A stretch of DNA of 62,881 bases from Nostoc linckia z4 (GTDB taxonomy: Bacteria > Cyanobacteriota > Cyanobacteriia > Cyanobacteriales > Nostocaceae). How positions within the stretch are numbered: position 1 is the first letter of the stretch; each line of letters begins with the position of its first letter. The stretch spans positions 14,453-77,333 of the forward strand of contig NZ_LAHA01000035.1 in NCBI RefSeq assembly GCF_002608075.1, written 5' to 3'. The position numbers and the translations under genes are program-made. Of this stretch, positions 31,288 to 58,351 are shown in pieces. The notes beneath the pieces were generated by a model, which made no database searches, had not been told where the DNA came from, and saw nothing but the letters and a program-made list of their open reading frames with translations.

Positions 31288-31363
31288 TGGCTGAAAGTAT
31301 AGGAATCGAACCTATAATGAATCGGCGATACACCGATCGCTCTACCAAATGAGCTAACTTTCA
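31288..31363 (-). tRNA. tRNA-like cloverleaf with encoded CCA but non-canonical anticodon loop (UGUAUCG)
   Basis: Manual fold: TGAAAGT/ACTTTCA acceptor, GCTC/GAGC D stem, ATCGG/CCGAT anticodon stem, ATAGG-TTCGATT-CCTAT T arm, G-CCA. G at position 33 and C at position 37, so probably non-decoding. Confidence 0.6.
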
Positions 31364-31411
31364 TGGTGAAATAGTTGGAAGCATTAAGCGGTATACGCTA
31401 TTACCAGAGGT

Positions 31412-41117: not shown

Positions 41118-41576
41118 AAAATAATTCCTTGCTCAGACGTTTTCCATTTAACTTTCCCGTCAACAGTCAACAATCAACACTCAACAACCACCACAATTGA
41201 TTATGCTTTTTTAGCGTCCATTATTTTATACTTGCAAGCATCATATAGTAATCCGATTTGATTCCTGAAATTATCTGCGTAGGTAGGGAACAGGGAATAG
41301 GGAACAGGGAACAGAAAAGAAGGGTATAGATGTGTAATGAATCTTGTTCAAAAATCAAATAGGAGTCCTATACTTTATATACAATCAAAATAAATTATCT
41401 CTACTCCAAGAGTGAGTTTTGTGAGTAATTTAGTCAAAAGTATTAGTAATAATTTCCCTCCAAAGAAAGAATAAACTACCAAGGATGATAGCCAGAATTA
41501 GGTAGTTTAATCTAATGATTTGACAATAGTCAGTACTCTATCTGCCTCCGTTTGTGATGTGCGGGGGTCTTTTGCT

Positions 41577-43979
41577 ATGAACAAGCAGGCTGCGAAAATT
41601 TTTTATCACCATAAATCACAGGCATCAGTAGCAAGTTTTTTTACTTTTACTGCCGTGTCTGCTCCCTTGGCAATCTCTTTGATTGCTAATCCAGTGTTGG
41701 CTCAATCATCGAATGCTAATGTTAATACTTCTTTTCCGGTTCCGCAATCCATTCCTAGTGGAACACAAGTGCGGATTAATGGTACAACCAGCATGGAAAA
41801 GATTAATCAAGCATTAGCGCAGGAGTTTCAAAGCAAGTATCCTAATACAAATGTCACCACTGGATATGATGGAACAGATGCGTCTTTGAAAGCATTGCCA
41901 AATGGACAGATTGATTTAGCGGCCATTGGTCGTTCGTTAACTGACTCGGAGAAAGCCCAAGGGCTTGCAAGTATTCCCATTACTCGGAATAAAATTGCGG
42001 TAATTGTCGGCAAGGATAATCCATATATCAACAATCTGACTTCTGAACAATTTGCTCAAATCTTTCGGGGTGATGTTAATGACTGGTCACAAGTAGGGGG
42101 TTCTGCCCACAGAATTCGCTTGATCGATCGCCCAGAAAATAGCGACTTGCGGCAAGCATTCCAGAATTATCCTGTTTTTCAAAAAGCTCCTTTTAAAACA
42201 GGTAAAAATGCGATTCAAGTTTCCGCAGACAGTACAGAAGCGGTAGTCAAAGAATTAGGGACAGATGGTATTGGATATGCGATCGCCGACGGGGTAATCA
42301 ATAACCCCAATGTAAAAATTGTGGCACTACATAATGTTCTGCCCACCGATACCCGTTATCCCTTTTCTCAACCTTTGGCTTATGCCTACGATAAATTTAA
42401 TCCAAGTCCTGCTGCCACGGCATTTTTAGGCTTTGCTACTGCACCGGCTAATGGGGGAATCATTGAACAAGCCAGGGTGAACAATGCCAACCAAACAGCA
42501 TCCACGCCTACAGGAGCAATTCCTCCCACCACTCGGACTGTAACACAACCCCAACGTGAATCTTCATGGTGGTGGTTATTGCTGATTCCTTTACTAGGTG
42601 GATTATTATGGTGGTTAAGTCGGCGCAACGCAACTTTAACCCCCACTGGAGTTGCTACACCTGTTTTAGGGAGCGGCCAAACCTCAGAGAATCGTATCGT
42701 CCTCACACCTCGAAGTTGCAGAGATGCCTATGTTTACTGGGAAGTTTCCAATCAAGTAAAAGAAGATTTGCAACGGCAAGGTGGACGTGGTTTGAAGTTG
42801 CGTCTTTATGATGTCACTGATATTGACGACATAGACCGGCAAACACCACATAGCATGAAGGAATTTGATGTAGATGGACAAGCGCGAGATATTCACCTGC
42901 CCATCGAGCTAGATAACCGGGATTATGTTGTTGAGCTTGGTTGTTTGAGCAACAATAATCGCTGGTTAAACATCGCTCGTTCGGCGAAAGTGCGAGTTCC
43001 TGCTTGCCAACCGGTTGGCGTTATCCCTACAGTGGCAAGTGGTGTTGCGGCTGCTTCTTTAGGGGACAATAACTCCATAACTACAAAAGATGAAGGTCGT
43101 GTAATTTTAGTACCTCGTAACTCCCAAGATGTCTATGCTTATTGGGAAATTCCCGAAGCACGCAAGGCAGAACTGCAACGCCAGGGGGGAAGACAGTTGG
43201 CGCTTCGTCTTTATGACAGTACAGGCATGGATTTGGAACGGCGGAGTGCCCAAAGTTTTCGGCAGTTTGAGTGTGACGAATCAACACAAGATTTACACAT
43301 TCCCATTGCCCAAAGCGATCGCGACTATGTGGCAGAATTAGGATACATTACTGCCAATGGGCATTGGCTAAAAGTGGCTGAGTCAGCACCGATAAAAGTT
43401 TCATCCACTGTTAAAGAAGGTAGTGCCGTCACATCCTCTGATGGGGCAACTAACTTGCCACAGTTGCAACGGAGCGATCGCACATCTAACCCAATTGTTG
43501 ATGTCAGAAATAGAGTTAACGAAACCATTGCAGAAACTACACCTATGGTAGGAGGCTTGGGAGCCACTGCTCACTCACTTTTAGGCAGAAAACAAGGTGA
43601 TGGCTTACAAACACCTTTAAGCGATCGCTCGACCATCAAAAGAGATTGCCGGATTATCCTAGTACCTCGCAACACGAAGGATGCTTATGCCTACTGGGAA
43701 ATTGCAGATGAGTACAAAGCAGCTGCCCGCATACAAGGCGGACGCAGATTTATCCTGCGAATTCACGATGTCACAAATTTAGACATTGAACATCAGTCGC
43801 CCCATAGTACTCAAGAATATCCATGCAATGAACGCGAACAAGACAAACACGTGGCCATTCCAGCAAGCGATCGCGATTATCTTGCAGAAATAGGTTATTA
43901 CACAGATGATGGCCGCTGGCTGAGTATTATTCGCTCCTTTGACGTTCACATACCATCCAATAAGCTGTTGAGCATTTAA
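41577..43979 (+). CDS. PstS-like substrate-binding domain protein with TM segment and three DUF4912-like repeats
   Basis: N-terminal PBP-type domain (RINGTTSM...LAAIGRSLT), TM WWWLLLIPLLGGLLWWL, and three repeats (I.LVPR...DAYAYWEI...QGGR.L.LR.YDVT). Confidence 0.7.
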   Translation: MNKQAAKIFYHHKSQASVASFFTFTAVSAPLAISLIANPVLAQSSNANVNTSFPVPQSIPSGTQVRINGTTSMEKINQALAQEFQSKYPNTNVTTGYDGTDASLKALPNGQIDLAAIGRSLTDSEKAQGLASIPITRNKIAVIVGKDNPYINNLTSEQFAQIFRGDVNDWSQVGGSAHRIRLIDRPENSDLRQAFQNYPVFQKAPFKTGKNAIQVSADSTEAVVKELGTDGIGYAIADGVINNPNVKIVALHNVLPTDTRYPFSQPLAYAYDKFNPSPAATAFLGFATAPANGGIIEQARVNNANQTASTPTGAIPPTTRTVTQPQRESSWWWLLLIPLLGGLLWWLSRRNATLTPTGVATPVLGSGQTSENRIVLTPRSCRDAYVYWEVSNQVKEDLQRQGGRGLKLRLYDVTDIDDIDRQTPHSMKEFDVDGQARDIHLPIELDNRDYVVELGCLSNNNRWLNIARSAKVRVPACQPVGVIPTVASGVAAASLGDNNSITTKDEGRVILVPRNSQDVYAYWEIPEARKAELQRQGGRQLALRLYDSTGMDLERRSAQSFRQFECDESTQDLHIPIAQSDRDYVAELGYITANGHWLKVAESAPIKVSSTVKEGSAVTSSDGATNLPQLQRSDRTSNPIVDVRNRVNETIAETTPMVGGLGATAHSLLGRKQGDGLQTPLSDRSTIKRDCRIILVPRNTKDAYAYWEIADEYKAAARIQGGRRFILRIHDVTNLDIEHQSPHSTQEYPCNEREQDKHVAIPASDRDYLAEIGYYTDDGRWLSIIRSFDVHIPSNKLLSI

Positions 43980-45488: not shown

Positions 45489-45674
45489 AAACTATTTATA
45501 ACGTAAATCTTAACTAGATGCGTTACGGCTGAACGCCTGACACACCGCCATACAAGATGGTGTGTTAGGCGCTTAGTTCATATTTTTCTTAACGGGGAAC
45601 AGGGAACTCTTAACAGACTTTGCTGTTGCCTGTTGCCCGTTCCCTGTTCCCTCTCCCGAAGGGAGTTGACAATT

Positions 45675-46046
45675 CTATACCTGTAAAAGAATTCGTGCTG
45701 CAATACCAGTCACATGATGAAGTGCATCTAGAAGTCTAGTTTCGTTTTCAGGTTTTTCTAATTCTTTATTCAAGGAATTAATACTTGCTTTTAAATCTGA
45801 TTGAAGCCTTTCAATTTGACCAGCAATTTTTTCCAAGATAGCATTCTCTATCTTAGCTATAGCGACAATTAAATCTCCTCTAGCTTGCACAAAAGATTTT
45901 GCTAAACACAAATTGGTTTCTGATGTGCAAATTAATATAACTTCTTCAAGAGAACCAAGCTTGAATTCAACATCTCTGAGTTCTTCAAGTAGTTCTTCTC
46001 TAAGAATATCAATTGGGTTTAGGCGTTCCGGAATAAAAGTAGACAT
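45675..46046 (-). CDS. small coiled-coil protein with hydrophobic C-terminus (paralogue of 46214-46597)
   Basis: ATG at 46046 preferred over the TTG at 46061. Shares the LQSDLKASINSLNKELEK / VTGIAARILL pattern with its neighbour. Confidence 0.5.
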   Translation of the reverse strand: MSTFIPERLNPIDILREELLEELRDVEFKLGSLEEVILICTSETNLCLAKSFVQARGDLIVAIAKIENAILEKIAGQIERLQSDLKASINSLNKELEKPENETRLLDALHHVTGIAARILLQV

Positions 46047-46213
46047 TTTTTCGATCCTCAAAAATTACAATTATTAATGCTTAAAGGTAAGTTGATAGTA
46101 CTTACGCATTGACCGAAAATTCCAAATGTGAATGAGTTTAAAAACCATATCTTTCGTATGGGTTTAGCATTGCTAAACCCAAACTAATTAGCTGATATAT
46201 ACCTTGAATATTC

Positions 46214-46597
46214 TTATCTAGCTAAAAGAACGATTCTTGAAACAATACCGATTACCCGCTCTATAGTTTGCAAAACTGTGATGGTATTTTCTAATTTTGC
46301 TAGCTCTTTTTTTAAGTTAGCAATGCCTGATTCTAAGTCTCCATTAAGTTTTTCAAGTCGTTCTGCAATACTGCCTATTGATGCATCTTGTAGCTTTCGT
46401 TTGCAAAGTATATAATCTTTTCTGGCTTCAAGATATCTTTTCCATTTAACTTCATCTTTATCATTTTCAAATTCTTTTTTAAATTTTAAGAATGTTCTAA
46501 CAGAATCTAAATCTACTTGTGTTTCTTCTAATTCTCTAAGCCGATTGTTTCTGATGTTATCTACATTAGTTAGACGACTAATAATTAGACTTGTCAT
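46214..46597 (-). CDS. small coiled-coil protein with hydrophobic C-terminus
   Basis: 127 aa. Starts 2 nt after the upstream stop. LNGDLESGIANLKKELAK ... VIGIVSRIVLL. Confidence 0.55.
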   Translation of the reverse strand: MTSLIISRLTNVDNIRNNRLRELEETQVDLDSVRTFLKFKKEFENDKDEVKWKRYLEARKDYILCKRKLQDASIGSIAERLEKLNGDLESGIANLKKELAKLENTITVLQTIERVIGIVSRIVLLAR

Positions 46598-46599
46598 AT

Positions 46600-47475
46600 T
46601 TACTCCTTGGTTTTTAATGTTTCAATTACAGATAAAAGATCTTCAATGTCTGTTAGTAATGCGTTAATCCGTCCACTACTAGACCGACCCTCTACAAAAT
46701 CTTGAAATATGTTTTGAAAATCTCCCAGTGCTTGACTTGCATTTTCAAGTTCTGCGGCAGTGAGTTCTTGAGTTAATAGTTCTCTGCGAGTAGCTATCCA
46801 TGTATCTTCATCAGCGATGGGTGTGGGTTGGAGCAATGGGTTAATGACAAGTCTTAGTTCTTGTCTATCTTGAATTCCCTTTAAATCACCTTTAATTTGA
46901 GTACTCAGAACATTGAGTAACTCTTGCTGTGTCTTTAATTCAAGCATAATAGTCTGATTGCGTTTTTGCAGTTCTTCTTTAAGAGCGCCCCGAATCTTAG
47001 AACTGACGATTAGTTTTCCTATACCTTGAAAAACCTCTTTATTTTCTATTAAGTTGCTTTCTCGTAAGGTCTGACCTATTGTATTTAAATTATCTACTAC
47101 CCCTCCAATAGCAGTTTGTGTTCGCTCAGGAGCATCAGACCCAGCTAAGTCCTGTAGTAATTTAAAATACTTACTCAGCAAGCTGTTGTGTTTTTTGAGC
47201 CGATTAATTAAGTCAATTCTATTACTATCTGAATCTGAAAATTCATTGTAATCATCAGATGTTTGATTATTTTCTCTGTCTTGTAATAAAAGTTCTTCAG
47301 AGCTTTCGTCAATTCGAGTTACAACAGCTAGATCTAATAGTTGGTTGAGAGCTTTGGAATAATTAGTTCCTGCCTGTGCTAGTTTTTTATATTCGTCAGT
47401 GGAACGACAAGCACTCAAACAAGTTGTGGCTATTGCTACAGCAATTATTATTGGAAAGTGAATTTTATTTTTCAT
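46600..47475 (-). CDS. putative lipoprotein, helical
   Basis: 291 aa. Signal peptide plus lipobox (IAVAIATTCLSAC). Coiled-coil-like remainder. Confidence 0.6.
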   Translation of the reverse strand: MKNKIHFPIIIAVAIATTCLSACRSTDEYKKLAQAGTNYSKALNQLLDLAVVTRIDESSEELLLQDRENNQTSDDYNEFSDSDSNRIDLINRLKKHNSLLSKYFKLLQDLAGSDAPERTQTAIGGVVDNLNTIGQTLRESNLIENKEVFQGIGKLIVSSKIRGALKEELQKRNQTIMLELKTQQELLNVLSTQIKGDLKGIQDRQELRLVINPLLQPTPIADEDTWIATRRELLTQELTAAELENASQALGDFQNIFQDFVEGRSSSGRINALLTDIEDLLSVIETLKTKE

Positions 47476-47551
47476 CTATTGTTTTCAAAGTTGCCCAAAA
47501 ATTATCGCATCAAATGTAGTTTTTGATTGAAAAATAGTAAAATAGATTAAA

Positions 47552-49222
47552 TTATCCATTTTTTAAATTCAGAAAATTTTGTCGAATCCACAATCTAAAT
47601 ATGCGTTTTAAAAGCCACTTTGTTAAGGGTTTTCCAATAAATATCCGGACATTCAGCTTAATAAAACTCCATAACTTAGATAAACGAGAACCATTATTTT
47701 TCATATCAAGCGGTTCTAGCCTGTCATTGATTAGATCCACCAAAGATTCTAAACGGAAGCTTAACTGATTTACAATTTCTTGACGTGTTTCTATGTCAAC
47801 CTCTGCCATTAACCTTCGTAATTCTGCAAGTTGATCTCGTTTGATGGCGTCATTATCTTGTAGTTGTTCTCCTTCTGGTGAACGAGGTTTTGCTAATTGA
47901 CTTAACTCTTTTTTTGCTTCATCCCAAGTATTTAAATTTTTATCGTTAACCTTACAATTAACTATCCACTCAAGAGGTGGCATTTTATTAAGTTCAAGGT
48001 TGAGTAAATCTTGGAGTTGACTCTTTGCTTGAAGATTGGACAGTTCAAATTGAGTGCGTTCCCGACCAATGTTGTAATCATAAGCCCGGAATTTCTTTTC
48101 AAGAAATCCAGCAAAGGCTGAGAAGACATCGCCAATTAACTCAAAGTCATTAGCTGTAATGGAAAATACTGGAGCATCCATTTCTTCCATAATCCAATCT
48201 TGGAAGCGAGACTGGTGAAAAATTGAACTCAGCAATGCAATTCCTGTTACCAAGAGATCGTTATCTTTTTTGATAAAAGGATTTTCGGGTAATTGGCGTT
48301 GACCTGGTGCAATATAAAGGTAATATCTTTTATCAGATAAATCTTGATTTTGATCGATGCGATCCACGAGGAGTTTAGCCATACCAATAGGCTCATTTTC
48401 AAAAACTCCACCATCTGTGTACAGATACTCCTCATTACGATCGCGACGCTTACCAAATCCACCAAAACGTCGAATTTTCCGAAGTTTAAAAGCGAAGGGA
48501 AATGCACCAGATGATAGACCGGCTTCGCGTAACTCACTCCAGTTAGTATCTCTAAGTTTTTTCCATTCTATTGACTCGCGTCCTGTTCTTGGATCTCTTA
48601 TTGTCTCTCGATCTATTTCATCAAGCGTCACATTCCCAAATCCATCGCGACGAGCTAGACACACAAATTGATCCTTATAACGGGTATATGCAAACTTTAG
48701 TGTTCCTTCTTTTCGGCCTTCACGAGCGTAATCAGTTGTAAGAGGGAAAGTATAGCCAGACAAGTTGGACATAGCTATACCAACATAAATCTCAGACGCA
48801 GCAGCCGGATGCTTTTGGTTGATTTGAACACGATCTTGCAGATATTTATTCCCAATTTTTTCAACAACTGCTGTTTGTAAAAGTGAGTATTTTTGATCTT
48901 CTTTTTCAACTTTAATTAATTCCCGAATATCAACTTCATCAACCCATGCATTGTAGAGTGGATTATTATATGGTTTGCGTAAAGACTGGTCTGGACGAAA
49001 GGGTGCAGGCTGATCGCCACAAAGAAGATGTTGGACTAAAATACAAGCCGTCATCCCACCCGCCGAAGCACCTGTAATTACATCAATTTCAATGGGTTCT
49101 TCATGATTTTTTATATCTTCGTTATGTCTGGCGATCGCTTCCAAAATTTCATACATAACGCCAGCTTCATAACTGCCAAGTGATACTGCTCCACTGATAA
49201 CAACGGCAAGCTTTTTGGGCAT
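47552..49222 (-). CDS. patatin-like phospholipase with extended C-terminal domain
   Basis: 556 aa. Oxyanion-hole motif SGAVSLGSYEAG, nucleophile GASAG, catalytic Asp motif YTDGGVFENEP. Confidence 0.85.
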   Translation of the reverse strand: MPKKLAVVISGAVSLGSYEAGVMYEILEAIARHNEDIKNHEEPIEIDVITGASAGGMTACILVQHLLCGDQPAPFRPDQSLRKPYNNPLYNAWVDEVDIRELIKVEKEDQKYSLLQTAVVEKIGNKYLQDRVQINQKHPAAASEIYVGIAMSNLSGYTFPLTTDYAREGRKEGTLKFAYTRYKDQFVCLARRDGFGNVTLDEIDRETIRDPRTGRESIEWKKLRDTNWSELREAGLSSGAFPFAFKLRKIRRFGGFGKRRDRNEEYLYTDGGVFENEPIGMAKLLVDRIDQNQDLSDKRYYLYIAPGQRQLPENPFIKKDNDLLVTGIALLSSIFHQSRFQDWIMEEMDAPVFSITANDFELIGDVFSAFAGFLEKKFRAYDYNIGRERTQFELSNLQAKSQLQDLLNLELNKMPPLEWIVNCKVNDKNLNTWDEAKKELSQLAKPRSPEGEQLQDNDAIKRDQLAELRRLMAEVDIETRQEIVNQLSFRLESLVDLINDRLEPLDMKNNGSRLSKLWSFIKLNVRIFIGKPLTKWLLKRIFRLWIRQNFLNLKNG

Positions 49223-49751
49223 TAATTTCCCTCACTTCATGTCTAAAAATTTAGAATAAACGGAATTTTTTTGTATAAATGCTTTTTTTGGGCAGTTTTT
49301 TAACACTTTTCCGTAGATTTCCTGATTGTATCAGCAATTATTTTTTTTAAAACTACAGATGTATTAAAAAATATTACACAGATGGTAATTGAATTTTAGA
49401 ATTTTTTTATATCTCTGGACATAGAAAAATAAGATGCCGCTCTGGAACTTATTTGCCAACAAGCATAGATAAATCAGGTTTAAAATATTCTCTAATGAAA
49501 TAAATAAAAAGAGTCTTGGGTTACTACATCCAAAAAAGCTGCTTTAGTAGATGTAAAATATAGCTAGAGGTAATTTAATAAAGTTAAAATAAATAAAGTT
49601 TTCTTTACACATGAATGCTTTTCAGACTAAAGCCAGTATTATTCTTAATAAAAAACAAAAAATATACATCAAAGTCATCAAAATTTTTAATTTATGAAAT
49701 TGTGGTGCGTTGCATTTGAGAACAAGACACCACAATCTACATCATTTAGTT

Positions 49752-51555: not shown

Positions 51556-51924
51556 TCACTCCGCAGACTTCACCGTTTGATTTGCCACCAAGCGTGGTTT
51601 CTTTCGTTCTGACTTACGCGTTCCACCAGCCATACCATATTCATCACTATTTTTGCCATAGCGAGACGCAACACTCAGCAGCATGTGTTCAGAATAATCA
51701 TTCAACACACGTTCAGCTTCTTCTAATGCATTCTGCGTTTTATCTATCATCGTTCGTGCTTGATTATGGGCGGCTAGCTTTTCTCGCAAATCCTGAATCA
51801 TAGTATTGTAACTAGTTATTGATAACCCATTACCAAAATCTAAGTCAGGCTTAATCGCCTGCATTCCTTCAACCCGTCGTTCAGCTTTCGTCAGTGCAAC
51901 TGAGTTTCGTCTGCGTTGCGGCAT
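51556..51924 (-). CDS. hypothetical coiled-coil protein (paralogue of 36699-37124)
   Basis: 122 aa. Colinear similarity to the 141-aa protein. Also preceded by a tandem repeat array. Confidence 0.65.
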   Translation of the reverse strand: MPQRRRNSVALTKAERRVEGMQAIKPDLDFGNGLSITSYNTMIQDLREKLAAHNQARTMIDKTQNALEEAERVLNDYSEHMLLSVASRYGKNSDEYGMAGGTRKSERKKPRLVANQTVKSAE

Positions 51925-53309: not shown

Positions 53310-54332
53310 TCATTCCAAAACTGTAGATGATGAGGATTTAGATACTTGAGTCATTTGATACTCGATCTGCGTAATTGCAGACATTATACTGTATTCATGC
53401 CCTTCTAATAGAGCATTTTTAATCTCTCTAACTTGCTCTAGGAGAGCTTTTCTAAGATATGGCTTTTGTTTAGATACGTAAGAATGATGACTCCAAATAT
53501 CAGAACCAATGATAAGAAATCCTGCTATCCAACCAGCAGCACACTTCGCTGCAAATGATGTTATTGCCTTGCCTAATCCTGCTTTAAGAGCAGTTTTACA
53601 GCCTAACTTCGCTAAAATTTTAGTGGCTTGTTTGCCGACATAAGCAATAAATTCTGTAGAAGATAATGTCATTTTCATGCCATATACTGCGCCTGTTATT
53701 GCCATGTCCTTTCCCCCCTTTTCAATCCAATATGCGATGTTACTAAACTGATAAATAATTCCCCCTTTTTCATAAGTTATCTTGCTGAGTTCCATGCTTA
53801 ATTCCTGAAACTCAACATTAGAAAGTTCATACTTGCATTGAATTTCCATAAAACCTTTTGCTAGTTCTACTGCATAAACATCAACCGTCTGTGTGAGTAT
53901 ATTCTGCATTTTTCTTTCCATCTGAGTAGGTGATAAAATATATACTTCAATCTTTTGTGCAACTTCTGTCTGTAGTGACTCTTTAGAAATAAGAGACATT
54001 AGACCTATTTTCTTTTGATAAAAATAATCAAAATATTCTTCCATGAAAACTTCTATATTTGGTTGCAGAGATTGAATCCACTCTTCTAAATGCTTATCTG
54101 CAAAGTCCTTGGCTTTAATTTTTGATTTCTCAAAAACAGCTAAAATTTCTTCAAGGAATTTCTCGCGGCTAAAATGTCTGTTAACTCTGTGCTTTTTATT
54201 TGAACCGCCAGGATTGTCTGACAAACTATATCGAGCAGTAAACAAGTAGATAAAGCACCAAAATATCAATAACATGGCTGTACCATAGCCTAGTACACTG
54301 CCGAAGGAATCAAGAAAATGGGAAAGCATCAC
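53310..54332 (-). CDS. hypothetical membrane protein
   Basis: 340 aa. N-terminal TM (GYGTAMLLIFWCFIYLF) and C-proximal hydrophobic segment (CAAGWIAGFLIIG). AT-rich. Confidence 0.55.
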   Translation of the reverse strand: MMLSHFLDSFGSVLGYGTAMLLIFWCFIYLFTARYSLSDNPGGSNKKHRVNRHFSREKFLEEILAVFEKSKIKAKDFADKHLEEWIQSLQPNIEVFMEEYFDYFYQKKIGLMSLISKESLQTEVAQKIEVYILSPTQMERKMQNILTQTVDVYAVELAKGFMEIQCKYELSNVEFQELSMELSKITYEKGGIIYQFSNIAYWIEKGGKDMAITGAVYGMKMTLSSTEFIAYVGKQATKILAKLGCKTALKAGLGKAITSFAAKCAAGWIAGFLIIGSDIWSHHSYVSKQKPYLRKALLEQVREIKNALLEGHEYSIMSAITQIEYQMTQVSKSSSSTVLE

Positions 54333-54527
54333 TTACTCGTAATGAATTACGCAGATAGCTTACCAAAACACTGATTTCGGAAGTTTCGGGAGAAAGGTAG
54401 TCCGCACTCAACTACTCCTACAAGGATTTCCAGACCTCAAGAACAAAAAATCCTTAGGTTCTCATGAGGTTTTTTCGTAAATTTTTTGTAAATTTTTTAT
54501 AAATTTTTATTAAAAATGGGGGCTAGG

Positions 54528-56225
54528 TTAATCTTGAAGGAAACGTAACAAGTCTGAATTTTGTAAAAAGTAACTAAAACTAGGATGATATAACCTATAG
54601 TGCAACTTTCCGTCCACTTCTTGTTTATATAGAAACTGTTTCCACTCCTCTAGTATTAACTGAAGTTCATATTGAGATTCAAATAAAGAAACCATATCAG
54701 TGAAAGATATTAGGCTAACATGACCTGAACTAGCATTAGCTAACTTACGAAGAAGCCGCTTGTGTCTGATATCACTTTTGTGATTAATATTCATACGGCG
54801 TAAATGACTCTCGTAATACCCTCTCAAACCTTCTGGAAGATTATCAAGACTATCCAAGTTTTTATAAACGCCTCGCTCAATATCTACTAATACATTTTTT
54901 AAATACCTAAAGTTTCTTTGACTTTTAAGTGTAAGAGTTTCAATAAGTTTTTCTTCACTTTCAAAAAGTCTTTCTTCACTACATGTTTTATCATCTTGTG
55001 AAGTGCGAAGCTTTTCTCTTCTGTCTAAATACTTTTTGATATATGTTCTACAATCTTCCTTCCATGTGTCACCAATAAGGCAGCTAATATCTTCTATCAT
55101 TAAAGGCACTTCAATTTCTAAGAAAATATTTTTTGGACGCTGAGACATAAAGAAAAAAATACCTTCTGGAAGATATTCCGGCAATTTTAGTATATTTTCT
55201 GACTCGTTGCTTAAATATACTTCGTCCAAAGCATCTATGACAATAACTAACTGTGACTTGTGCTTATGTAAAACTTTTTTACTTATCTCCTCAAGTAAAC
55301 TATTAAGTAGCGAAATATCAACATTTTCTAACTTTTCTTTAAAATGTCTTAGTTGATCATAATATTTATGATATAATTGGTTACAAATACTTTCTAGAAA
55401 ATCATAAATCTGGTTAAGTCCTTGGGGTTGCTGTACAAAAAAACAGGGACATTTATTTTCTAATACATACTTAGCTAGTATTGCTGTTTTTCCAACTCCA
55501 GGATCGCCCTGCAATATAAAATATCCTTGTGAATGATCTTTTTGAAATTTTTTAAATCTCTCAATAATATCTTTTCTTTCAATAAAATCTTCTGGATCTG
55601 TATGGTACTTAATTAAAGTCTGAAATTCTAAAGGAGGTTCAAATATATTGCTATTAATAAAGGAATTTGAATTGCCAAAAAATTCATTTTCATAACGTTC
55701 TTTTAGGGATTTAATAGTTTCATCGTTACTTTCGCTGATAACAATATTGTTGACAGTAAATCTCCAATCTTTAGACCCCTGCCTTGTAGATTTATGGCGA
55801 TCATCTTTTAGAAGTTTGTGTTCATCTGCATCCTTTATTACGTCTCCAAGTGATTTAATTACAGTTTCCTTTTGAAAATCGTTGGATATATCAGGATAAT
55901 TTTTACAAAAATCCTGTGATTCTTGTGAGCATATTGAATTTTTTACATACGAATTAACTAGATTTTCTAAATTTTTTAGAGTGCAACAAACTTCAATAGT
56001 TTTATTCCTTATATCATCACTAATGTTTCCCTTGAAATCCGGATATGGTTTATTTTCATCCTCACCTTGATTGCGAATGTAGTCTTTTAATGCCATAATA
56101 AGTAAAATAGCCCGTTGCATTTTTTTGTTACTAATTTTTCTGTCTTCTTTCGATGCGTTCATATTTGATAATATATATAAATAAGAGTTTGCACATTTTT
56201 TAGGTAAGTATATATAAATATACAT
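54528..56225 (-). CDS. STAND/NACHT-like P-loop NTPase with unknown N-terminal domain
   Basis: Walker A GDPGVGKTAILAKY, Walker B LVIVIDALDEV. Likely start at Met 56162 (MNASKEDRK). AT-rich, no HIP1 seen by eye. Confidence 0.7.
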   Translation of the reverse strand: MYIYIYLPKKCANSYLYILSNMNASKEDRKISNKKMQRAILLIMALKDYIRNQGEDENKPYPDFKGNISDDIRNKTIEVCCTLKNLENLVNSYVKNSICSQESQDFCKNYPDISNDFQKETVIKSLGDVIKDADEHKLLKDDRHKSTRQGSKDWRFTVNNIVISESNDETIKSLKERYENEFFGNSNSFINSNIFEPPLEFQTLIKYHTDPEDFIERKDIIERFKKFQKDHSQGYFILQGDPGVGKTAILAKYVLENKCPCFFVQQPQGLNQIYDFLESICNQLYHKYYDQLRHFKEKLENVDISLLNSLLEEISKKVLHKHKSQLVIVIDALDEVYLSNESENILKLPEYLPEGIFFFMSQRPKNIFLEIEVPLMIEDISCLIGDTWKEDCRTYIKKYLDRREKLRTSQDDKTCSEERLFESEEKLIETLTLKSQRNFRYLKNVLVDIERGVYKNLDSLDNLPEGLRGYYESHLRRMNINHKSDIRHKRLLRKLANASSGHVSLISFTDMVSLFESQYELQLILEEWKQFLYKQEVDGKLHYRLYHPSFSYFLQNSDLLRFLQD

Positions 56226-57049: not shown

Positions 57050-58351
57050 TCAACTTCGCTTATAAACGATTTCCATTTTCAACTTCTCAACCTCTAATCT
57101 CAACTTTTCATTTTCCATTCTCAATTTAGCATTTTCTTCCCTAATTAACTCAACTTCATTCCTCTTACTCAACGCCTGATTCATTGCTAACTTTCGCATA
57201 TCTAGCGAAAACCATCGCTGATAAGTTTGCGTGTGAACTTGGACGCTATGACCTAGATTATCTGCTGCTGCTTTAATTGGAATTCCTAAAATATGCGCTC
57301 GAATTGCCCAAGCGTGGCGTAAATCATAAGGCTTAAAATCTAAGCCGATTTTACGAAACCACCAACTGACTCGTTGTGTTAATGCCGTGATTTCTGCATA
57401 ATTAGTATTATCTTTTTTACTAATTGCCGTTGCCAGCATTTCTAAATATTTGGGATTCCTTAAATCAAATTCCTCAATCCATTGTTTATATAAAGGTAAA
57501 GCTTCTCTCTCGCCAGTCTTACAATCTTTATGAACCTTCCAGGTTAAATCCAAATTTTCTTGACTTAACCACCAATCGATGTCAGGATTAATAAAAAGCT
57601 CGCGCGGTCGTAAACCGAAAACTGCTAACATTCCATAAGTCCAGCGCCAAAGCTGCCAGCTATCTTGGACATTTTGGTTAACTTGATTGCCTCTGGTATT
57701 TAAGTATTGTTCAAACTTGCCAATCCCCTCAGCTATTTCTGCATCAGTCGGTATATTGCGGGAATTATTCTCTGGCATTTTGGAGTATTTTGATAAATCG
57801 ATTTCGATTTTGAACGTCTGACAAAATACAGCGATCGCTCTTGCTGCATTATACTTAGACCATTCCTTATCGATTCTTTCAATCGCATTTATCAAATTCT
57901 CAGAAGTCGCCAAATCAGCAGGATTAGTAAATCGCTTAGTTCGGGAAATATAATAAAAAAAAGTATGTTCGCTTTTAGTCGTCCGTTTGTGAGTTTTAAA
58001 ATATTCATCTTCAAATTTTTCCAGCAATTCGCCAATTGTTTTACAATCTTTTTTAATTGCCTCATTGCCTAAATATTTTTCATTCCATGCAAAAGTTTTA
58101 CGAGCAATTAACTTTCCTAACTCATAAGCTTCTTCCTCAGCCGTTTTTAACCCATCCAAATTAGCAGGAATATTCAAGCTGAGATTGTATTGCTTTCTAC
58201 CAGTGCCATTTTTATCCTTGTCCCCAGGTTTAATCGGTAACGTAGCGCGTAATTGCAGACTTCCATTAGATTCTCGAATTGTTACCTTAGTCTTTGCAGA
58301 CTTCAAACGCAGATTTACCGTCTCTAATTCCAGTAATACTTTTGATTTCAT
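57050..58351 (-). CDS. xisA: nifD-element site-specific tyrosine recombinase XisA
   Basis: 433 aa. Integrase motifs RPRELF, YDLRHAWAIRA, LGHSVQVHTQTYQRW. N-terminus (NGSLQLRATLP) resembles Anabaena XisA. Located at the inner right border of the element. Confidence 0.9.
   Translation of the reverse strand: MKSKVLLELETVNLRLKSAKTKVTIRESNGSLQLRATLPIKPGDKDKNGTGRKQYNLSLNIPANLDGLKTAEEEAYELGKLIARKTFAWNEKYLGNEAIKKDCKTIGELLEKFEDEYFKTHKRTTKSEHTFFYYISRTKRFTNPADLATSENLINAIERIDKEWSKYNAARAIAVFCQTFKIEIDLSKYSKMPENNSRNIPTDAEIAEGIGKFEQYLNTRGNQVNQNVQDSWQLWRWTYGMLAVFGLRPRELFINPDIDWWLSQENLDLTWKVHKDCKTGEREALPLYKQWIEEFDLRNPKYLEMLATAISKKDNTNYAEITALTQRVSWWFRKIGLDFKPYDLRHAWAIRAHILGIPIKAAADNLGHSVQVHTQTYQRWFSLDMRKLAMNQALSKRNEVELIREENAKLRMENEKLRLEVEKLKMEIVYKRS

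What the first reader, a model, noticed from the sequence alone, without database searches (positions are those of the whole stretch)
45675..49222. Patatin-like phospholipase in a tight four-gene minus-strand cluster with a lipoprotein and two paralogous tail-hydrophobic coiled-coil proteins
The 556-aa patatin has GASAG and DGG motifs and a ~200-aa C-terminal extension. It is followed after 76 nt by a 291-aa helical lipoprotein (lipobox LSAC). A 127-aa protein follows 2 nt later, and a paralogous ~123-aa protein follows after 152 nt. The two small proteins share a coiled-coil segment (L..DL...I..L.KEL.K.EN) and a hydrophobic C-terminus (V.GI..RI.L). Patatin domains are effectors in several anti-phage systems such as CBASS CapV, but no cyclase or other known sensor is nearby. 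The block is AT-rich and sits in an accessory element. It could be an uncharacterised membrane-targeting module.
Basis: partly seen in the sequence, partly recalled or inferred. Interest (0 to 1): 0.6.

Follow-up and report, generated by a model that had tools for sequence, protein, structure and literature searches.

The report
Patatin lipase beside novel lipoprotein pair
A Nostoc gene cluster places a membrane-lipid-cutting enzyme next to an undescribed two-gene unit (an exported lipoprotein plus a small coiled-coil protein). That unit recurs in many genomes and sits next to different lipases more often than chance predicts, which points to an unknown membrane-directed module rather than a known defence system.

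Summary
The four minus-strand genes exist as described: a 556-aa patatin with an intact Ser/Asp dyad, a 291-aa helical lipoprotein, and two distantly paralogous small coiled-coil proteins with a hydrophobic C-terminal helix.

The four genes are not the conserved unit. They occur together only in close Nostoc relatives. The patatin belongs to a widespread stand-alone family of about 560 aa (cyanobacteria, Chlorobi, Acidobacteria, Verrucomicrobia). Its neighbours elsewhere are mostly housekeeping genes, or peptidoglycan hydrolases in other Nostocales.

The conserved unit is the lipoprotein plus the small protein. They were always adjacent, 2-25 nt apart, in 14 distinct contexts. The small-protein family has at least 132 robust clusters. 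Neither protein matches Pfam, NCBIfam, PADLOC, PHROGs or a solved structure.

Four of the 14 contexts put a lipolytic enzyme directly beside the pair:
- patatin, in two gene orders
- a class-3 lipase
- a caspase plus alpha/beta-hydrolase protein whose N-terminus is the small-protein domain

The partner changes even where the lipoproteins are 73-84% identical.

Best reading (about 0.4): a membrane-located constant pair with exchangeable lipolytic effectors, working like a conflict or cell-death module. It is not CBASS. The main rival (about 0.3) is chance juxtaposition with a housekeeping lipase.

The parts
47552..49222 (-). Patatin-like phospholipase, 556 aa. It has no signal peptide. The catalytic domain spans residues 7-282, followed by a family-specific C-terminal region of about 270 aa.
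   Evidence: ORF. Pfam Patatin E=7.6e-14. Full-length homologues reach E<1e-80 in cyanobacteria. N-terminal ~390-440 aa tblastn matches in other phyla sit in ORFs of ~540-620 aa.
49058..49072 (-). Codons for G51-A-S53-A-G55, the nucleophile elbow.
   Evidence: Invariant in a 21-sequence family alignment.
48407..48415 (-). Codons for D270-G-G272, the catalytic Asp motif.
   Evidence: Invariant in the 21-sequence alignment.
47555..47689 (-). Cationic amphipathic C-terminal tail of the patatin (about residues 512-556). Inferred to be a peripheral membrane-binding segment.
   Evidence: Net charge is +10 over the last 60 residues, and positive in 18 of 21 family members. Maximum helical hydrophobic moment is 0.52. 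There is no TM-grade hydrophobic stretch. Membrane binding is an inference.
46600..47475 (-). Helical lipoprotein, 291 aa: the constant component 1 of the conserved pair.
   Evidence: ORF. 46 homologous clusters. Invariant lipobox Cys23. AF2 six-helix bundle. No Pfam, NCBIfam, PADLOC, PHROG or PDB relative.
47407..47475 (-). Lipoprotein signal peptide and lipobox (M1...L20-S-A-C23).
   Evidence: Read directly from the sequence. Cys23 and G/A22 are conserved in the family.
46214..46597 (-). Small coiled-coil protein 1, 127 aa, with a hydrophobic C-terminal helix: the constant component 2. It starts 2 nt after the lipoprotein stop.
   Evidence: ORF. Profile search found 481 cluster representatives at E<=1e-3, 132 at <=1e-10. 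AF2 four-helix model, pLDDT 79. Adjacent to a lipoprotein homologue in all 14 contexts.
46153..46187 (.). 17-bp inverted repeat between small1 and small2. It may act as a terminator or attenuator and separate small2 as its own transcription unit.
   Evidence: The function is inferred.
45675..46046 (-). Small coiled-coil protein 2, 123 aa from the ATG. It is an old orphan paralogue of the small family with no lipoprotein of its own.
   Evidence: ORF and AGGA Shine-Dalgarno. It is 32% identical to small1 and 37-38% to small proteins of another pair subfamily. It is conserved in L001 and L093-L095.
45595..45651 (.). 22-bp inverted repeat just after the small2 stop. Probably the end of the transcription unit.
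   Evidence: The function is inferred.
49223..49751 (-). 529-nt AT-rich (26% GC) intergenic region upstream of the patatin. Presumed promoter region.
   Evidence: The promoter scan was no better than shuffled sequence, so this is inferred only.

Best explanation
The cluster is a composite of two parts.

The first part is a self-contained two-gene unit that moves between genomic contexts. It consists of an exported helical lipoprotein and, translationally coupled to it, a small cytoplasmic coiled-coil protein. The small protein's extreme C-terminal hydrophobic helix probably anchors it in, or inserts it into, the membrane.

The second part is a patatin phospholipase with a cationic amphipathic tail. 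It has been recruited as a lipolytic partner. An orphan second copy of the small protein lies downstream.

I propose that the pair is the constant, membrane-located core (anchor, sensor or gate) and that the lipase next to it is an exchangeable executioner that hydrolyses membrane lipids. That would make it a conflict or cell-death type module, similar in logic to 'constant small membrane component plus variable caspase/hydrolase effector' systems.

What is shown:
- The gene anatomy and the intact catalytic dyad.
- Obligate pairing of the lipoprotein and the small protein.
- Swapping of neighbours, and a fusion of the small domain to a caspase plus alpha/beta-hydrolase protein.

What is inferred:
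- Membrane insertion of the small protein.
- Physical or regulatory coupling between the pair and the patatin.
- A death or defence role.
For: 1. Obligate pair. In 14 distinct contexts a lipoprotein homologue (HMM E from 1e-68 to 1e-141) is followed 2-25 nt later by a small-family gene. L089 is probably non-cyanobacterial, because it carries LptD and a sigma-54 activator.

2. Lipolytic neighbours directly adjacent in 4 of 14 contexts, from three unrelated families:
- patatin, as patatin>lipoprotein>small in the window type and as lipoprotein>small>patatin in L006
- Lipase_3 in Chlorogloeopsis L081, E=4e-32
- Peptidase_C14 plus DUF7379/PGAP1-like hydrolase in Nostoc N6 L084, followed by a PAF-AH-like hydrolase

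3. Fusion. The first ~115 residues of the 1273-aa L084 protein match the small-family HMM at E=3.7e-19. That HMM was built without the L084 sequence.

4. Partner swapping at short evolutionary distance. The L006 lipoprotein (next to patatin) is 84% identical to the L081 one (Lipase_3), 80% to L085 (unknown neighbours), 73% to L086 (no partner), and only 52% to the window's. The patatin therefore pairs with two different pair subfamilies in two gene orders.

5. Conflict-type surroundings:
- STAND-WD40 or caspase-STAND genes next to the pair in L081, L083, L084 and L085
- CHAT-TPR in L098
- a toxin-antitoxin module in L097
- ParB/TraG in L088
- an EAD4-STAND gene 5 kb away in the window

6. Caspase-linked lipase-like alpha/beta-hydrolases are experimentally shown death effectors in prokaryotic defence (PMC12642450). 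Two-gene systems with a constant small membrane component plus variable caspase effectors are described in PMC7159879.

7. The patatin has an intact dyad, no signal peptide and a cationic amphipathic tail. In Calothrix, Scytonema and Brasilonema its orthologues follow signal-less peptidoglycan hydrolases, an envelope-degrading context.

8. Pseudanabaena biceps L022 repeats the pattern: patatin, then a 385-aa lipoprotein, then a 140-aa coiled-coil protein with a hydrophobic helix. Sequence similarity there is only marginal.
Against: - Ten of the 14 pair contexts have no recognisable lipase, so the pair does not need one.
- 77 of 80 patatin-family loci lack any such pair. Outside Nostocales the patatin sits among housekeeping genes, which fits an autonomous lipid-turnover enzyme.
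- Topology is awkward. The lipoprotein is exported, while the patatin, the Lipase_3 protein and the small protein have no signal peptide. A direct lipoprotein-lipase contact is therefore not expected.
- The small protein's C-terminal helix is only borderline hydrophobic: 44% of members reach a Kyte-Doolittle score of 1.6.
- There is no hit to any defence-system model, none in viral contigs and none in plasmids.
- The adjacent STAND proteins do not carry the small domain, so there is no EAD-type coupling.
- The enrichment estimate rests on few contexts that are not phylogenetically independent.
- There are no expression or phenotype data.
Confidence: 0.4

Rival explanations
1. Chance juxtaposition. 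The patatin is an autonomous, vertically inherited membrane-lipid turnover or remodelling enzyme. The lipoprotein/small pair and the orphan small2 gene happened to insert next to it in a variable region of some Nostoc genomes, and the two parts do not work together.
For: - The patatin family is widespread, about 560 aa, and stand-alone. Identity falls roughly with phylogenetic distance: 72% Cylindrospermum, 63-65% Calothrix and Scytonema, 50% Pseudanabaena, about 40% picocyanobacteria, 36-41% other phyla.
- Its contexts elsewhere are housekeeping and syntenic within lineages: MsbA-like exporter, FKBP and LptFG; ComEC; YebC; NadA.
- Only 2 of 80 patatin loci carry the pair.
- The pair lands in very diverse places.
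- The 76-nt gap and a separate hairpin before small2 allow independent transcription.
Against: - Four of 14 pair contexts have a lipolytic enzyme at the immediately adjacent position, from three unrelated families. With a generous background of 1% lipase genes, four or more hits in about 28 flanking positions has a rough probability of 2e-4. This is my estimate and the contexts are not fully independent.
- The patatin is adjacent to two different pair subfamilies in two different gene orders.
- The small domain is covalently fused to a caspase plus lipase-like hydrolase.
Confidence: 0.3
2. Envelope-lipid maintenance module. The periplasmic helical lipoprotein binds or handles lipids, or assists lipases, in the manner of the MlaA lipoprotein or a Lif-type lipase foldase. 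The small protein is its inner-membrane partner. The neighbouring lipases remodel envelope lipids as part of normal physiology or stress adaptation, not conflict.
For: - The lipoprotein is all-helical and lipid-anchored, with many invariant polar and aromatic residues: Y29, H96, Y103, R162, E168, R172, E206, W226, R230.
- Neighbours include lipid hydrolases, a BON-domain protein in L006, and a hydrolase in L084 with a DUF1400 domain and a signal-peptide-like N-terminus read from its sequence.
- In Acidobacteriaceae the patatin family is syntenic with MsbA-like and LptFG genes.
- Many pairs sit among ordinary genes.
Against: - There is no Pfam hit to MlaA or Lipase_chap, even at E<=1.
- The pair is patchy and context-hopping even at 73-84% identity, which is unlike core envelope machinery.
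- The patatin and the Lipase_3 protein lack export signals.
- A fusion to a caspase is hard to fit with housekeeping.
Confidence: 0.15
3. Effector-immunity cassette. The lipases are exported antibacterial toxins, and the lipoprotein (with or without the small protein) is the periplasmic immunity factor, as in T6SS Tle-Tli pairs. Pairs found without a lipase would be orphan immunity genes.
For: - Periplasmic lipoproteins are the classic immunity proteins for phospholipase toxins (established knowledge of Tle/Tli).
- Orphan immunity genes are common.
- Signal-less peptidoglycan hydrolases sit next to patatin orthologues in other Nostocales, which resembles effector arrays.
Against: - One lipoprotein family would have to neutralise three structurally unrelated lipase folds.
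- No secretion-system, PAAR, VgrG or polymorphic-toxin markers were seen among the neighbours.
- The patatin has no export signal or trafficking domain.
- The obligate partner is a cytoplasmic small protein, which is not a feature of Tli systems.
Confidence: 0.08
4. A known patatin-based anti-phage system: a CBASS CapV-type effector or another catalogued system.
For: The only support is a partial PADLOC match to a CBASS phospholipase effector model, E=6e-5, covering residues 227-283 around the DGG motif.
Against: - NCBIfam CBASS_lipase scores 12 bits against a cutoff of 200.
- No CD-NTase, cyclase or other catalogued partner among the flanking ORFs scanned between 38.7 and 58.4 kb.
- The lipoprotein and the small proteins match no PADLOC model above noise.
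Confidence: 0.02

Closest known systems
Patatin-like phospholipase superfamily (PF01734), with the TIGR03607-type bacterial patatins as the nearest curated model
   Same: GxSxG nucleophile elbow, DGG catalytic Asp motif, and an N-terminal glycine-rich loop (SGAVSLG). The Pfam score is above the gathering threshold. TIGR03607 aligns over residues 5-317.
   Different: TIGR03607 scores 47.7 bits against a cutoff of 262. No PDB sequence relative was found, even with a family profile. The family has its own C-terminal region of about 270 aa, with an invariant FSAFAGFLE..F..YDYNIGR block and a cationic tail.
EACC1-caspase two-gene conflict systems (Kaur et al. 2020, PMC7159879; pore-forming EACC1 in PMC12642450)
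   Same: The logic is the same: a constant small membrane-associated component encoded next to, or fused with, variable caspase or hydrolase effectors. Both are enriched in multicellular bacteria such as Nostocales. L084 shows the small domain joined to a caspase and an alpha/beta-hydrolase.
   Different: EACC1 is a single glycine-rich TM helix flanked by alpha+beta elements. Here the small protein is an all-helical coiled coil with a C-terminal hydrophobic helix. It has an obligate lipoprotein partner, which EACC1 systems lack. There is no Pfam EACC1 hit. Most pairs have no caspase.
CBASS with a CapV patatin effector
   Same: A patatin-domain enzyme as a possible membrane-degrading effector.
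   Different: There is no cyclase and no nucleotide-sensing partner. The CBASS_lipase model is not met.
T6SS Tle phospholipase / Tli lipoprotein effector-immunity pairs
   Same: A lipase gene adjacent to a gene for an exported lipoprotein.
   Different: The same lipoprotein family accompanies three unrelated lipase folds, and often none. No secretion-system genes are nearby. An obligate cytoplasmic small partner is present.
Caspase-associated alpha/beta-hydrolase death effectors (PMC12642450)
   Same: In L084 the module contains a caspase and a lipase-like alpha/beta-hydrolase next to a caspase-STAND-WD40 gene.
   Different: In L084 the caspase and hydrolase are in one polypeptide that starts with the small-protein domain. 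The window itself has a patatin and no protease.
Two-component phage spanins (Rz/Rz1)
   Same: A lipoprotein paired with a coiled-coil membrane protein, close to envelope-degrading enzymes.
   Different: An i-spanin has an N-terminal TM segment and a periplasmic coiled coil, and an o-spanin is a lipoprotein of about 60 aa. Here the hydrophobic helix is C-terminal and the lipoprotein is a helical bundle of about 290 aa. Neither the pair nor the patatin was found in viral contigs.

Membership tests
Patatin-like phospholipase (PF01734) | Profile match above the curated threshold | tested here: met
   52.8 bits against a cutoff of 27.7, E=7.6e-14, residues 7-282.
Patatin-like phospholipase (PF01734) | Ser-Asp catalytic dyad in GxSxG and DG[AG] motifs | tested here: met
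   G51ASAG55 and D270GG272 are invariant in 21 family members.
Patatin-like phospholipase (PF01734) | N-terminal glycine-rich oxyanion loop (canonical GGxR/K) | tested here: inconclusive
   A variant loop, S10-G-A-V-S-L-G16, is at least 90% conserved, but it lacks the canonical basic residue.
Patatin-like phospholipase (PF01734) | Lipid acyl-hydrolase activity | not testable with these tools
   Needs an enzyme assay.
CBASS (CapV-type effector) | Match to the CBASS lipase equivalog model | tested here: not met
   NF041079 scores 12.2 bits against a cutoff of 200. The PADLOC effector match is partial only, E=6e-5.
CBASS (CapV-type effector) | Adjacent CD-NTase/cyclase | tested here: not met
   No cyclase among the 12 flanking ORFs scanned by Pfam or PADLOC between 38.7 and 58.4 kb.
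TIGR03607 patatin subfamily | Score above the curated cutoff over the full 732-position model | tested here: not met
   47.7 bits against 262, and only positions 4-319 are matched.
EACC1-caspase two-gene system | EACC1 domain (single conserved Gly-rich TM helix with alpha+beta flanks) | tested here: not met
   No Pfam EACC1 hit for either small protein at E<=1. AF2 gives an all-helical four-helix model. The definition is taken from PMC7159879.
EACC1-caspase two-gene system | 3' gene encoding a caspase fused to variable effector domains | tested here: not met
   There is no peptidase in the window cluster. A caspase is present only in the related locus L084.
Effector-associated domain (EAD) / Death-like adaptor coupling | The same small domain present on both the effector and the linked NTPase | tested here: not met
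   The small-family HMM finds nothing significant in the adjacent STAND proteins of L081, L084, L085 or the window. There are no Pfam EAD hits for the small proteins.
T6SS Tle-Tli effector-immunity | Effector linked to T6SS delivery markers (VgrG, PAAR, Hcp) and an immunity protein specific to that effector family | tested here: not met
   No such genes appear in the window or in the 14 pair contexts. One lipoprotein family accompanies three lipase folds.
Lipase-specific foldase (Lif, PF03280) / MlaA lipoprotein (PF04333) | Profile or fold match | tested here: not met
Two-component spanin | i-spanin with an N-terminal TMD, a small o-spanin lipoprotein, and location in a phage lysis cassette | tested here: not met
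   The hydrophobic helix is at the C-terminus in 150 of 158 members and none has an N-terminal hydrophobic segment. The lipoprotein is about 290 aa. The pair is absent from viral contigs.
Lipoprotein/small-protein pair (family defined here) | A ~290-aa lipobox protein followed within 25 nt by a ~110-130-aa coiled-coil protein ending in a hydrophobic helix | tested here: met
   The window pair has a 2-nt gap. The same arrangement appears in 14 contexts.

The most novel reading that the evidence does not exclude
The lipoprotein plus tail-hydrophobic coiled-coil pair is the constant core of an undescribed, membrane-based conflict or programmed-cell-death system. It is concentrated in filamentous cyanobacteria and also occurs in at least one probably non-cyanobacterial bacterium. 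The core senses or gates at the envelope and licenses exchangeable lipolytic effectors (patatin, class-3 lipase, caspase plus alpha/beta-hydrolase) that destroy the cell's own membranes. The small-protein domain would be a new adaptor or anchor domain that can be fused directly to such effectors.
Probability: 0.3. Interest if true: 0.75.

Novelty: new variant of a known kind. Interest (0 to 1): 0.5.

Why it matters
If the pair really partners with lipases, it defines a new, unannotated protein-family duo: at least 132 robust small-protein clusters with no Pfam, NCBIfam, PADLOC or PHROG model. It would also add a new way of wiring membrane-degrading effectors in multicellular cyanobacteria, alongside the EACC1, Pepco and caspase-hydrolase modules that are only now being characterised.

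It also flags a large patatin family of about 560 aa, spread across several phyla, that has no solved or studied member.

If the adjacency is coincidental, the finding reduces to an ordinary uncharacterised lipase next to two hypothetical genes.

Tried and rejected
- **Known defence systems.** PADLOC, NCBIfam and PHROGs on all four proteins gave only a partial CBASS-effector hit on the patatin and noise-level coiled-coil hits.
- **PDB sequence and profile searches.** No relative was found for any of the three families.
- **Phage or plasmid carriage.** No relatives in IMG/VR viral contigs or PLSDB plasmids.
- **EAD-style coupling.** No match of the small domain to neighbouring STAND NTPases.
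- **A small-protein-like segment inside the patatin C-terminus.** None found.
- **A deeper patatin-lipoprotein-small trio in Pseudanabaena (L022).** The arrangement is analogous, but hhalign probabilities are only 1.5% and 12%, so it is suggestive only. The Verrucomicrobia locus L070 (lipoprotein, 100 aa, patatin) turned out to be unrelated.
- **Lipocone/TelC-type lipid-head-group enzymes** (preprint 10.1101/2025.01.14.632903). Considered for the lipoprotein, but no supporting profile or fold hit.
- **Regulatory RNA, promoter and terminator scans.** Nothing above background. The single Rfam hit was RAGATH-19 at 26 bits against a gathering score of 85.6.
- **Island boundaries.** No flanking repeats, tRNA or integrase delimit the block.
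- **Metagenome scan for more pair contexts.** It returned only six loci, mostly close relatives.

Full report
**1. Observation**

The window is essentially Nostoc sp. 2RC: the patatin is 99% identical to that strain's protein. Four minus-strand ORFs lie at the stated coordinates.

- **Patatin (47552-49222, 556 aa).** It matches Pfam Patatin above threshold, E=7.6e-14, residues 7-282. G51ASAG55 and D270GG272 are invariant in an alignment of 21 diverse homologues. The rest of the protein, about 270 aa rather than 200, is a family-specific region. It ends in a cationic amphipathic tail with net charge +10 over the last 60 residues, positive in 18 of 21 members, and no TM-grade segment.
- **Lipoprotein (46600-47475, 291 aa).** It begins 76 nt downstream of the patatin stop. 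Its lipobox Cys23 is invariant in the family.
- **small1 (46214-46597, 127 aa).** It starts 2 nt after the lipoprotein stop.
- **small2.** It most likely starts at the ATG at 46046, giving 123 aa, with an AGGA about 10 nt upstream.

The two small proteins are true paralogues: E=1e-14 and 39% identity over 72 aa. They are old paralogues, 32% identical overall. small2 is slightly closer to small proteins of a different subfamily, at 37-38%.

**2. The patatin family**

Full-length homologues, including the C-terminal region, occur throughout cyanobacteria (Cylindrospermum 72%, Calothrix and Scytonema 63-65%, Pseudanabaena about 50%, Microcystis 48%, Synechococcus and Cyanobium about 40%). In other phyla (Chlorobiaceae, Acidobacteria, Verrucomicrobia, deltaproteobacteria), tblastn matches cover about the first 390-440 aa, inside ORFs of about 540-620 aa. 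At least 442 species-level genome loci encode a relative.

The family has no solved relative detectable by sequence. It fails the curated TIGR03607 and CBASS-lipase models.

I clustered the neighbours in 80 loci and found that context is lineage-specific.
- Acidobacteriaceae: an MsbA-like ABC exporter, an FKBP and fused LptF/LptG.
- Chlorobiaceae: ComEC and an amylase, or an M23 peptidase.
- Other cyanobacteria: YebC or NadA.
- Calothrix, Scytonema and Brasilonema: signal-less peptidoglycan hydrolases (PG_binding_1+CHAP, or Glucosaminidase+Amidase_2) immediately upstream on the same strand.

Only L001 (a close Nostoc relative) and L006 carry the lipoprotein and small genes, by BLAST and by HMM. 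The four-gene block is therefore not co-conserved beyond close relatives (L001, L093-L095).

**3. The lipoprotein/small pair is the conserved unit**

A word-indexed search found 46 lipoprotein clusters, from Nostoc, Chlorogloeopsis and Leptolyngbya. I examined their contexts and those of small-protein relatives. In every one of 14 distinct contexts, a lipoprotein-family gene (HMM E from 1e-68 to 1e-141) is followed 2-25 nt later by a small-family gene. One context, L089, is probably non-cyanobacterial: it has LptD and a sigma-54-dependent activator, and 53% GC.

An exhaustive profile search of 1.84 billion representatives found 481 small-family clusters at E<=1e-3 and 132 at E<=1e-10. Nearly all are 105-135 aa.

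Properties of the small family:
- The domain ends at the extreme C-terminus in 150 of 158 members.
- The terminal ~22 residues are hydrophobic, with a mean best-19 Kyte-Doolittle score of 1.53, and 44% of members reach 1.6 or more.
- The segment usually carries one or more charged residues, typically an Arg/Lys near the C-terminus.
- None has an N-terminal signal.

AF2 gives a four-helix coiled-coil model for small1 (pLDDT 79) and a six-helix bundle for the lipoprotein (pLDDT 75, pTM 0.71). Neither family has any Pfam, NCBIfam, PADLOC or PHROG match. Neither has an informative structural neighbour.

**4. Link to lipases**

Four of the 14 contexts have a lipolytic enzyme immediately adjacent to the pair.
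- The window type: patatin > lipoprotein > small1 > small2.
- L006: lipoprotein > small > patatin.
- Chlorogloeopsis L081: lipoprotein > small > Lipase_3.
- Nostoc N6 L084: the lipoprotein is followed 25 nt later by a 1273-aa protein. Its N-terminal ~115 residues are the small-protein domain, matching at E=3.7e-19 against an HMM built without it. The rest contains Peptidase_C14 and a C-terminal DUF7379/PGAP1-like alpha/beta-hydrolase. A PAF-AH-like hydrolase with a signal-peptide-like N-terminus follows.

The partner changes over short evolutionary distances. The L006 lipoprotein is 84% identical to L081's, 80% to L085's (unknown neighbours, NB-ARC-WD40 adjacent), 73% to L086's (no partner), and only 52% to the window's. 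The patatin therefore lies next to two different pair subfamilies in two gene orders.

I estimated how unlikely this is. Assuming a generous 1% background of lipase genes, four or more hits in about 28 flanking positions has a probability of roughly 2e-4. This is an inference from few contexts that are not fully independent.

Surroundings are often conflict-type:
- STAND-WD40 or caspase-STAND genes (L081, L083, L084, L085)
- CHAT-TPR and DUF1822 (L098)
- PemK/ParD (L097)
- ParB/TraG (L088)
- an EAD4-STAND NTPase 5 kb away in the window itself

Pseudanabaena biceps L022 shows an analogous layout: patatin, then a 385-aa lipoprotein, then a 140-aa coiled-coil protein with a hydrophobic helix. The similarity is only marginal.

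**5. Mechanism**

Shown:
- an intact catalytic dyad
- an exported lipoprotein
- an obligately coupled small protein that ends in a hydrophobic helix
- exchangeable lipolytic neighbours
- one covalent fusion of the small domain to a caspase plus hydrolase

Inferred:
- The small protein anchors or inserts in the cytoplasmic membrane through its C-terminal helix.
- Together with the lipoprotein on the other face of the membrane, it forms a constant membrane-located core.
- The adjacent lipase is an exchangeable effector acting on membrane lipids. For the patatin this would be from the cytoplasmic side, through its cationic tail.

The logic resembles the EACC1-caspase two-gene systems (PMC7159879) and the caspase-activated lipase-like alpha/beta-hydrolase death effectors shown experimentally in PMC12642450. 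Every membership test for those families, and for CBASS, Tle-Tli, Lif/MlaA, spanins and EAD coupling, failed. I put this explanation at about 0.4.

**6. Rivals**

- **Chance juxtaposition (about 0.3).** The patatin is an autonomous housekeeping-type lipase next to a mobile pair. This is favoured by the patatin's broad, largely vertical distribution and housekeeping contexts, by 77 of 80 patatin loci lacking any such pair, and by 10 of 14 pairs lacking a lipase. The recurrent, multi-family lipase adjacency and the fusion argue against it.
- **Envelope-lipid maintenance or lipase helper (about 0.15).** No profile or fold support, and it conflicts with the pair's patchy, context-hopping behaviour.
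- **Effector-immunity (about 0.08).** Unlikely, because one lipoprotein family accompanies three lipase folds and no secretion markers are present.
- **A catalogued patatin defence system (about 0.02).** Effectively refuted.

**7. Novelty and verdict**

No literature on this patatin family or on the pair was found. The patatin is a new, unstudied branch of a known superfamily. The lipoprotein/small pair is an unannotated family duo.

Taken together, the locus is best called a new variant of a known kind: a membrane-directed effector module with a constant core and variable enzymes. Its function is unproven.

Interest is moderate, at 0.5. Following it did uncover a well-supported, previously undescribed two-gene module with a testable link to lipases and caspases.

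Noticed in passing
window 53310-56225 (-), with 57050-58351 (-): The 565-aa protein at 54528-56225 has an EAD4 domain plus a NACHT/nSTAND3-like STAND NTPase (Pfam; PADLOC STAND_TPR 4.5e-11). It is followed by a 340-aa protein with no Pfam hit and a hydrophobic N-terminus. This looks like a separate conflict system of the Kaur et al. 2020 type. An integrase-like gene lies at 57050-58351.
   Followed up: partly
window 31288-33121 (-): A tRNA cluster: tRNA-Ile with anticodon TAT, plus two directly adjacent tRNA-Met genes.
   Followed up: no
window 51556-51924 (-); L086 4667-5029: A 122-aa basic protein with no Pfam hit, 2.3 kb upstream of the patatin, is 44% identical (E=1e-31) to a 120-aa gene about 1 kb upstream of the lipoprotein/small pair in Nostoc DSM 114167. 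It may be a further recurrent neighbour.
   Followed up: partly
L002-L005, about 5.2-8.0 kb in each locus: Patatin orthologues (61-65% identity) in Scytonema, Brasilonema and Calothrix are preceded on the same strand by a conserved 172-186-aa protein with no Pfam hit and by signal-less peptidoglycan hydrolases (Glucosaminidase+Amidase_2, or PG_binding_1+CHAP). This looks like an envelope-degrading cassette.
   Followed up: partly
L022 7986-11604 (Pseudanabaena biceps): A patatin (50% identity) is followed by a 385-aa lipobox protein and a 140-aa coiled-coil protein with a hydrophobic helix near its C-terminus. The trio is analogous to the window's, but sequence similarity to the window's pair is only marginal.
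   Followed up: partly
L059, L063, L065-L067, L078-L080 (Acidobacteriaceae): The patatin family is syntenic with an MsbA-like ABC exporter, an FKBP isomerase and a fused LptF/LptG permease. This hints at a role in outer-membrane lipid homeostasis in that lineage.
   Followed up: partly
L081 5020-5706; L003 4572-4910; L005 3240-3569: The 228-aa protein upstream of the pair in Chlorogloeopsis shares its N-terminal signal region (52-69% identity over 36-50 aa) with small secreted proteins in the Calothrix patatin loci. This may be only a common Nostocales signal peptide.
   Followed up: no
window 46153-46187 and 45595-45651: Two strong inverted repeats: a 17-bp stem between small1 and small2, and a 22-bp stem just after the small2 stop and facing the convergent methyltransferase gene. 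They are probably transcript boundaries.
   Followed up: no
window 41520-43979 (+): An 819-aa protein with a PstS-like PBP domain followed by three DUF4912 repeats. This is an unusual architecture and was not examined further.
   Followed up: no
L090 6001-6858: A second type of small-domain fusion: a 285-aa protein with the small domain at residues 9-119, then an extended hydrophobic stretch and a C-terminal region of about 160 aa. It is again directly downstream of a lipoprotein homologue.
   Followed up: partly
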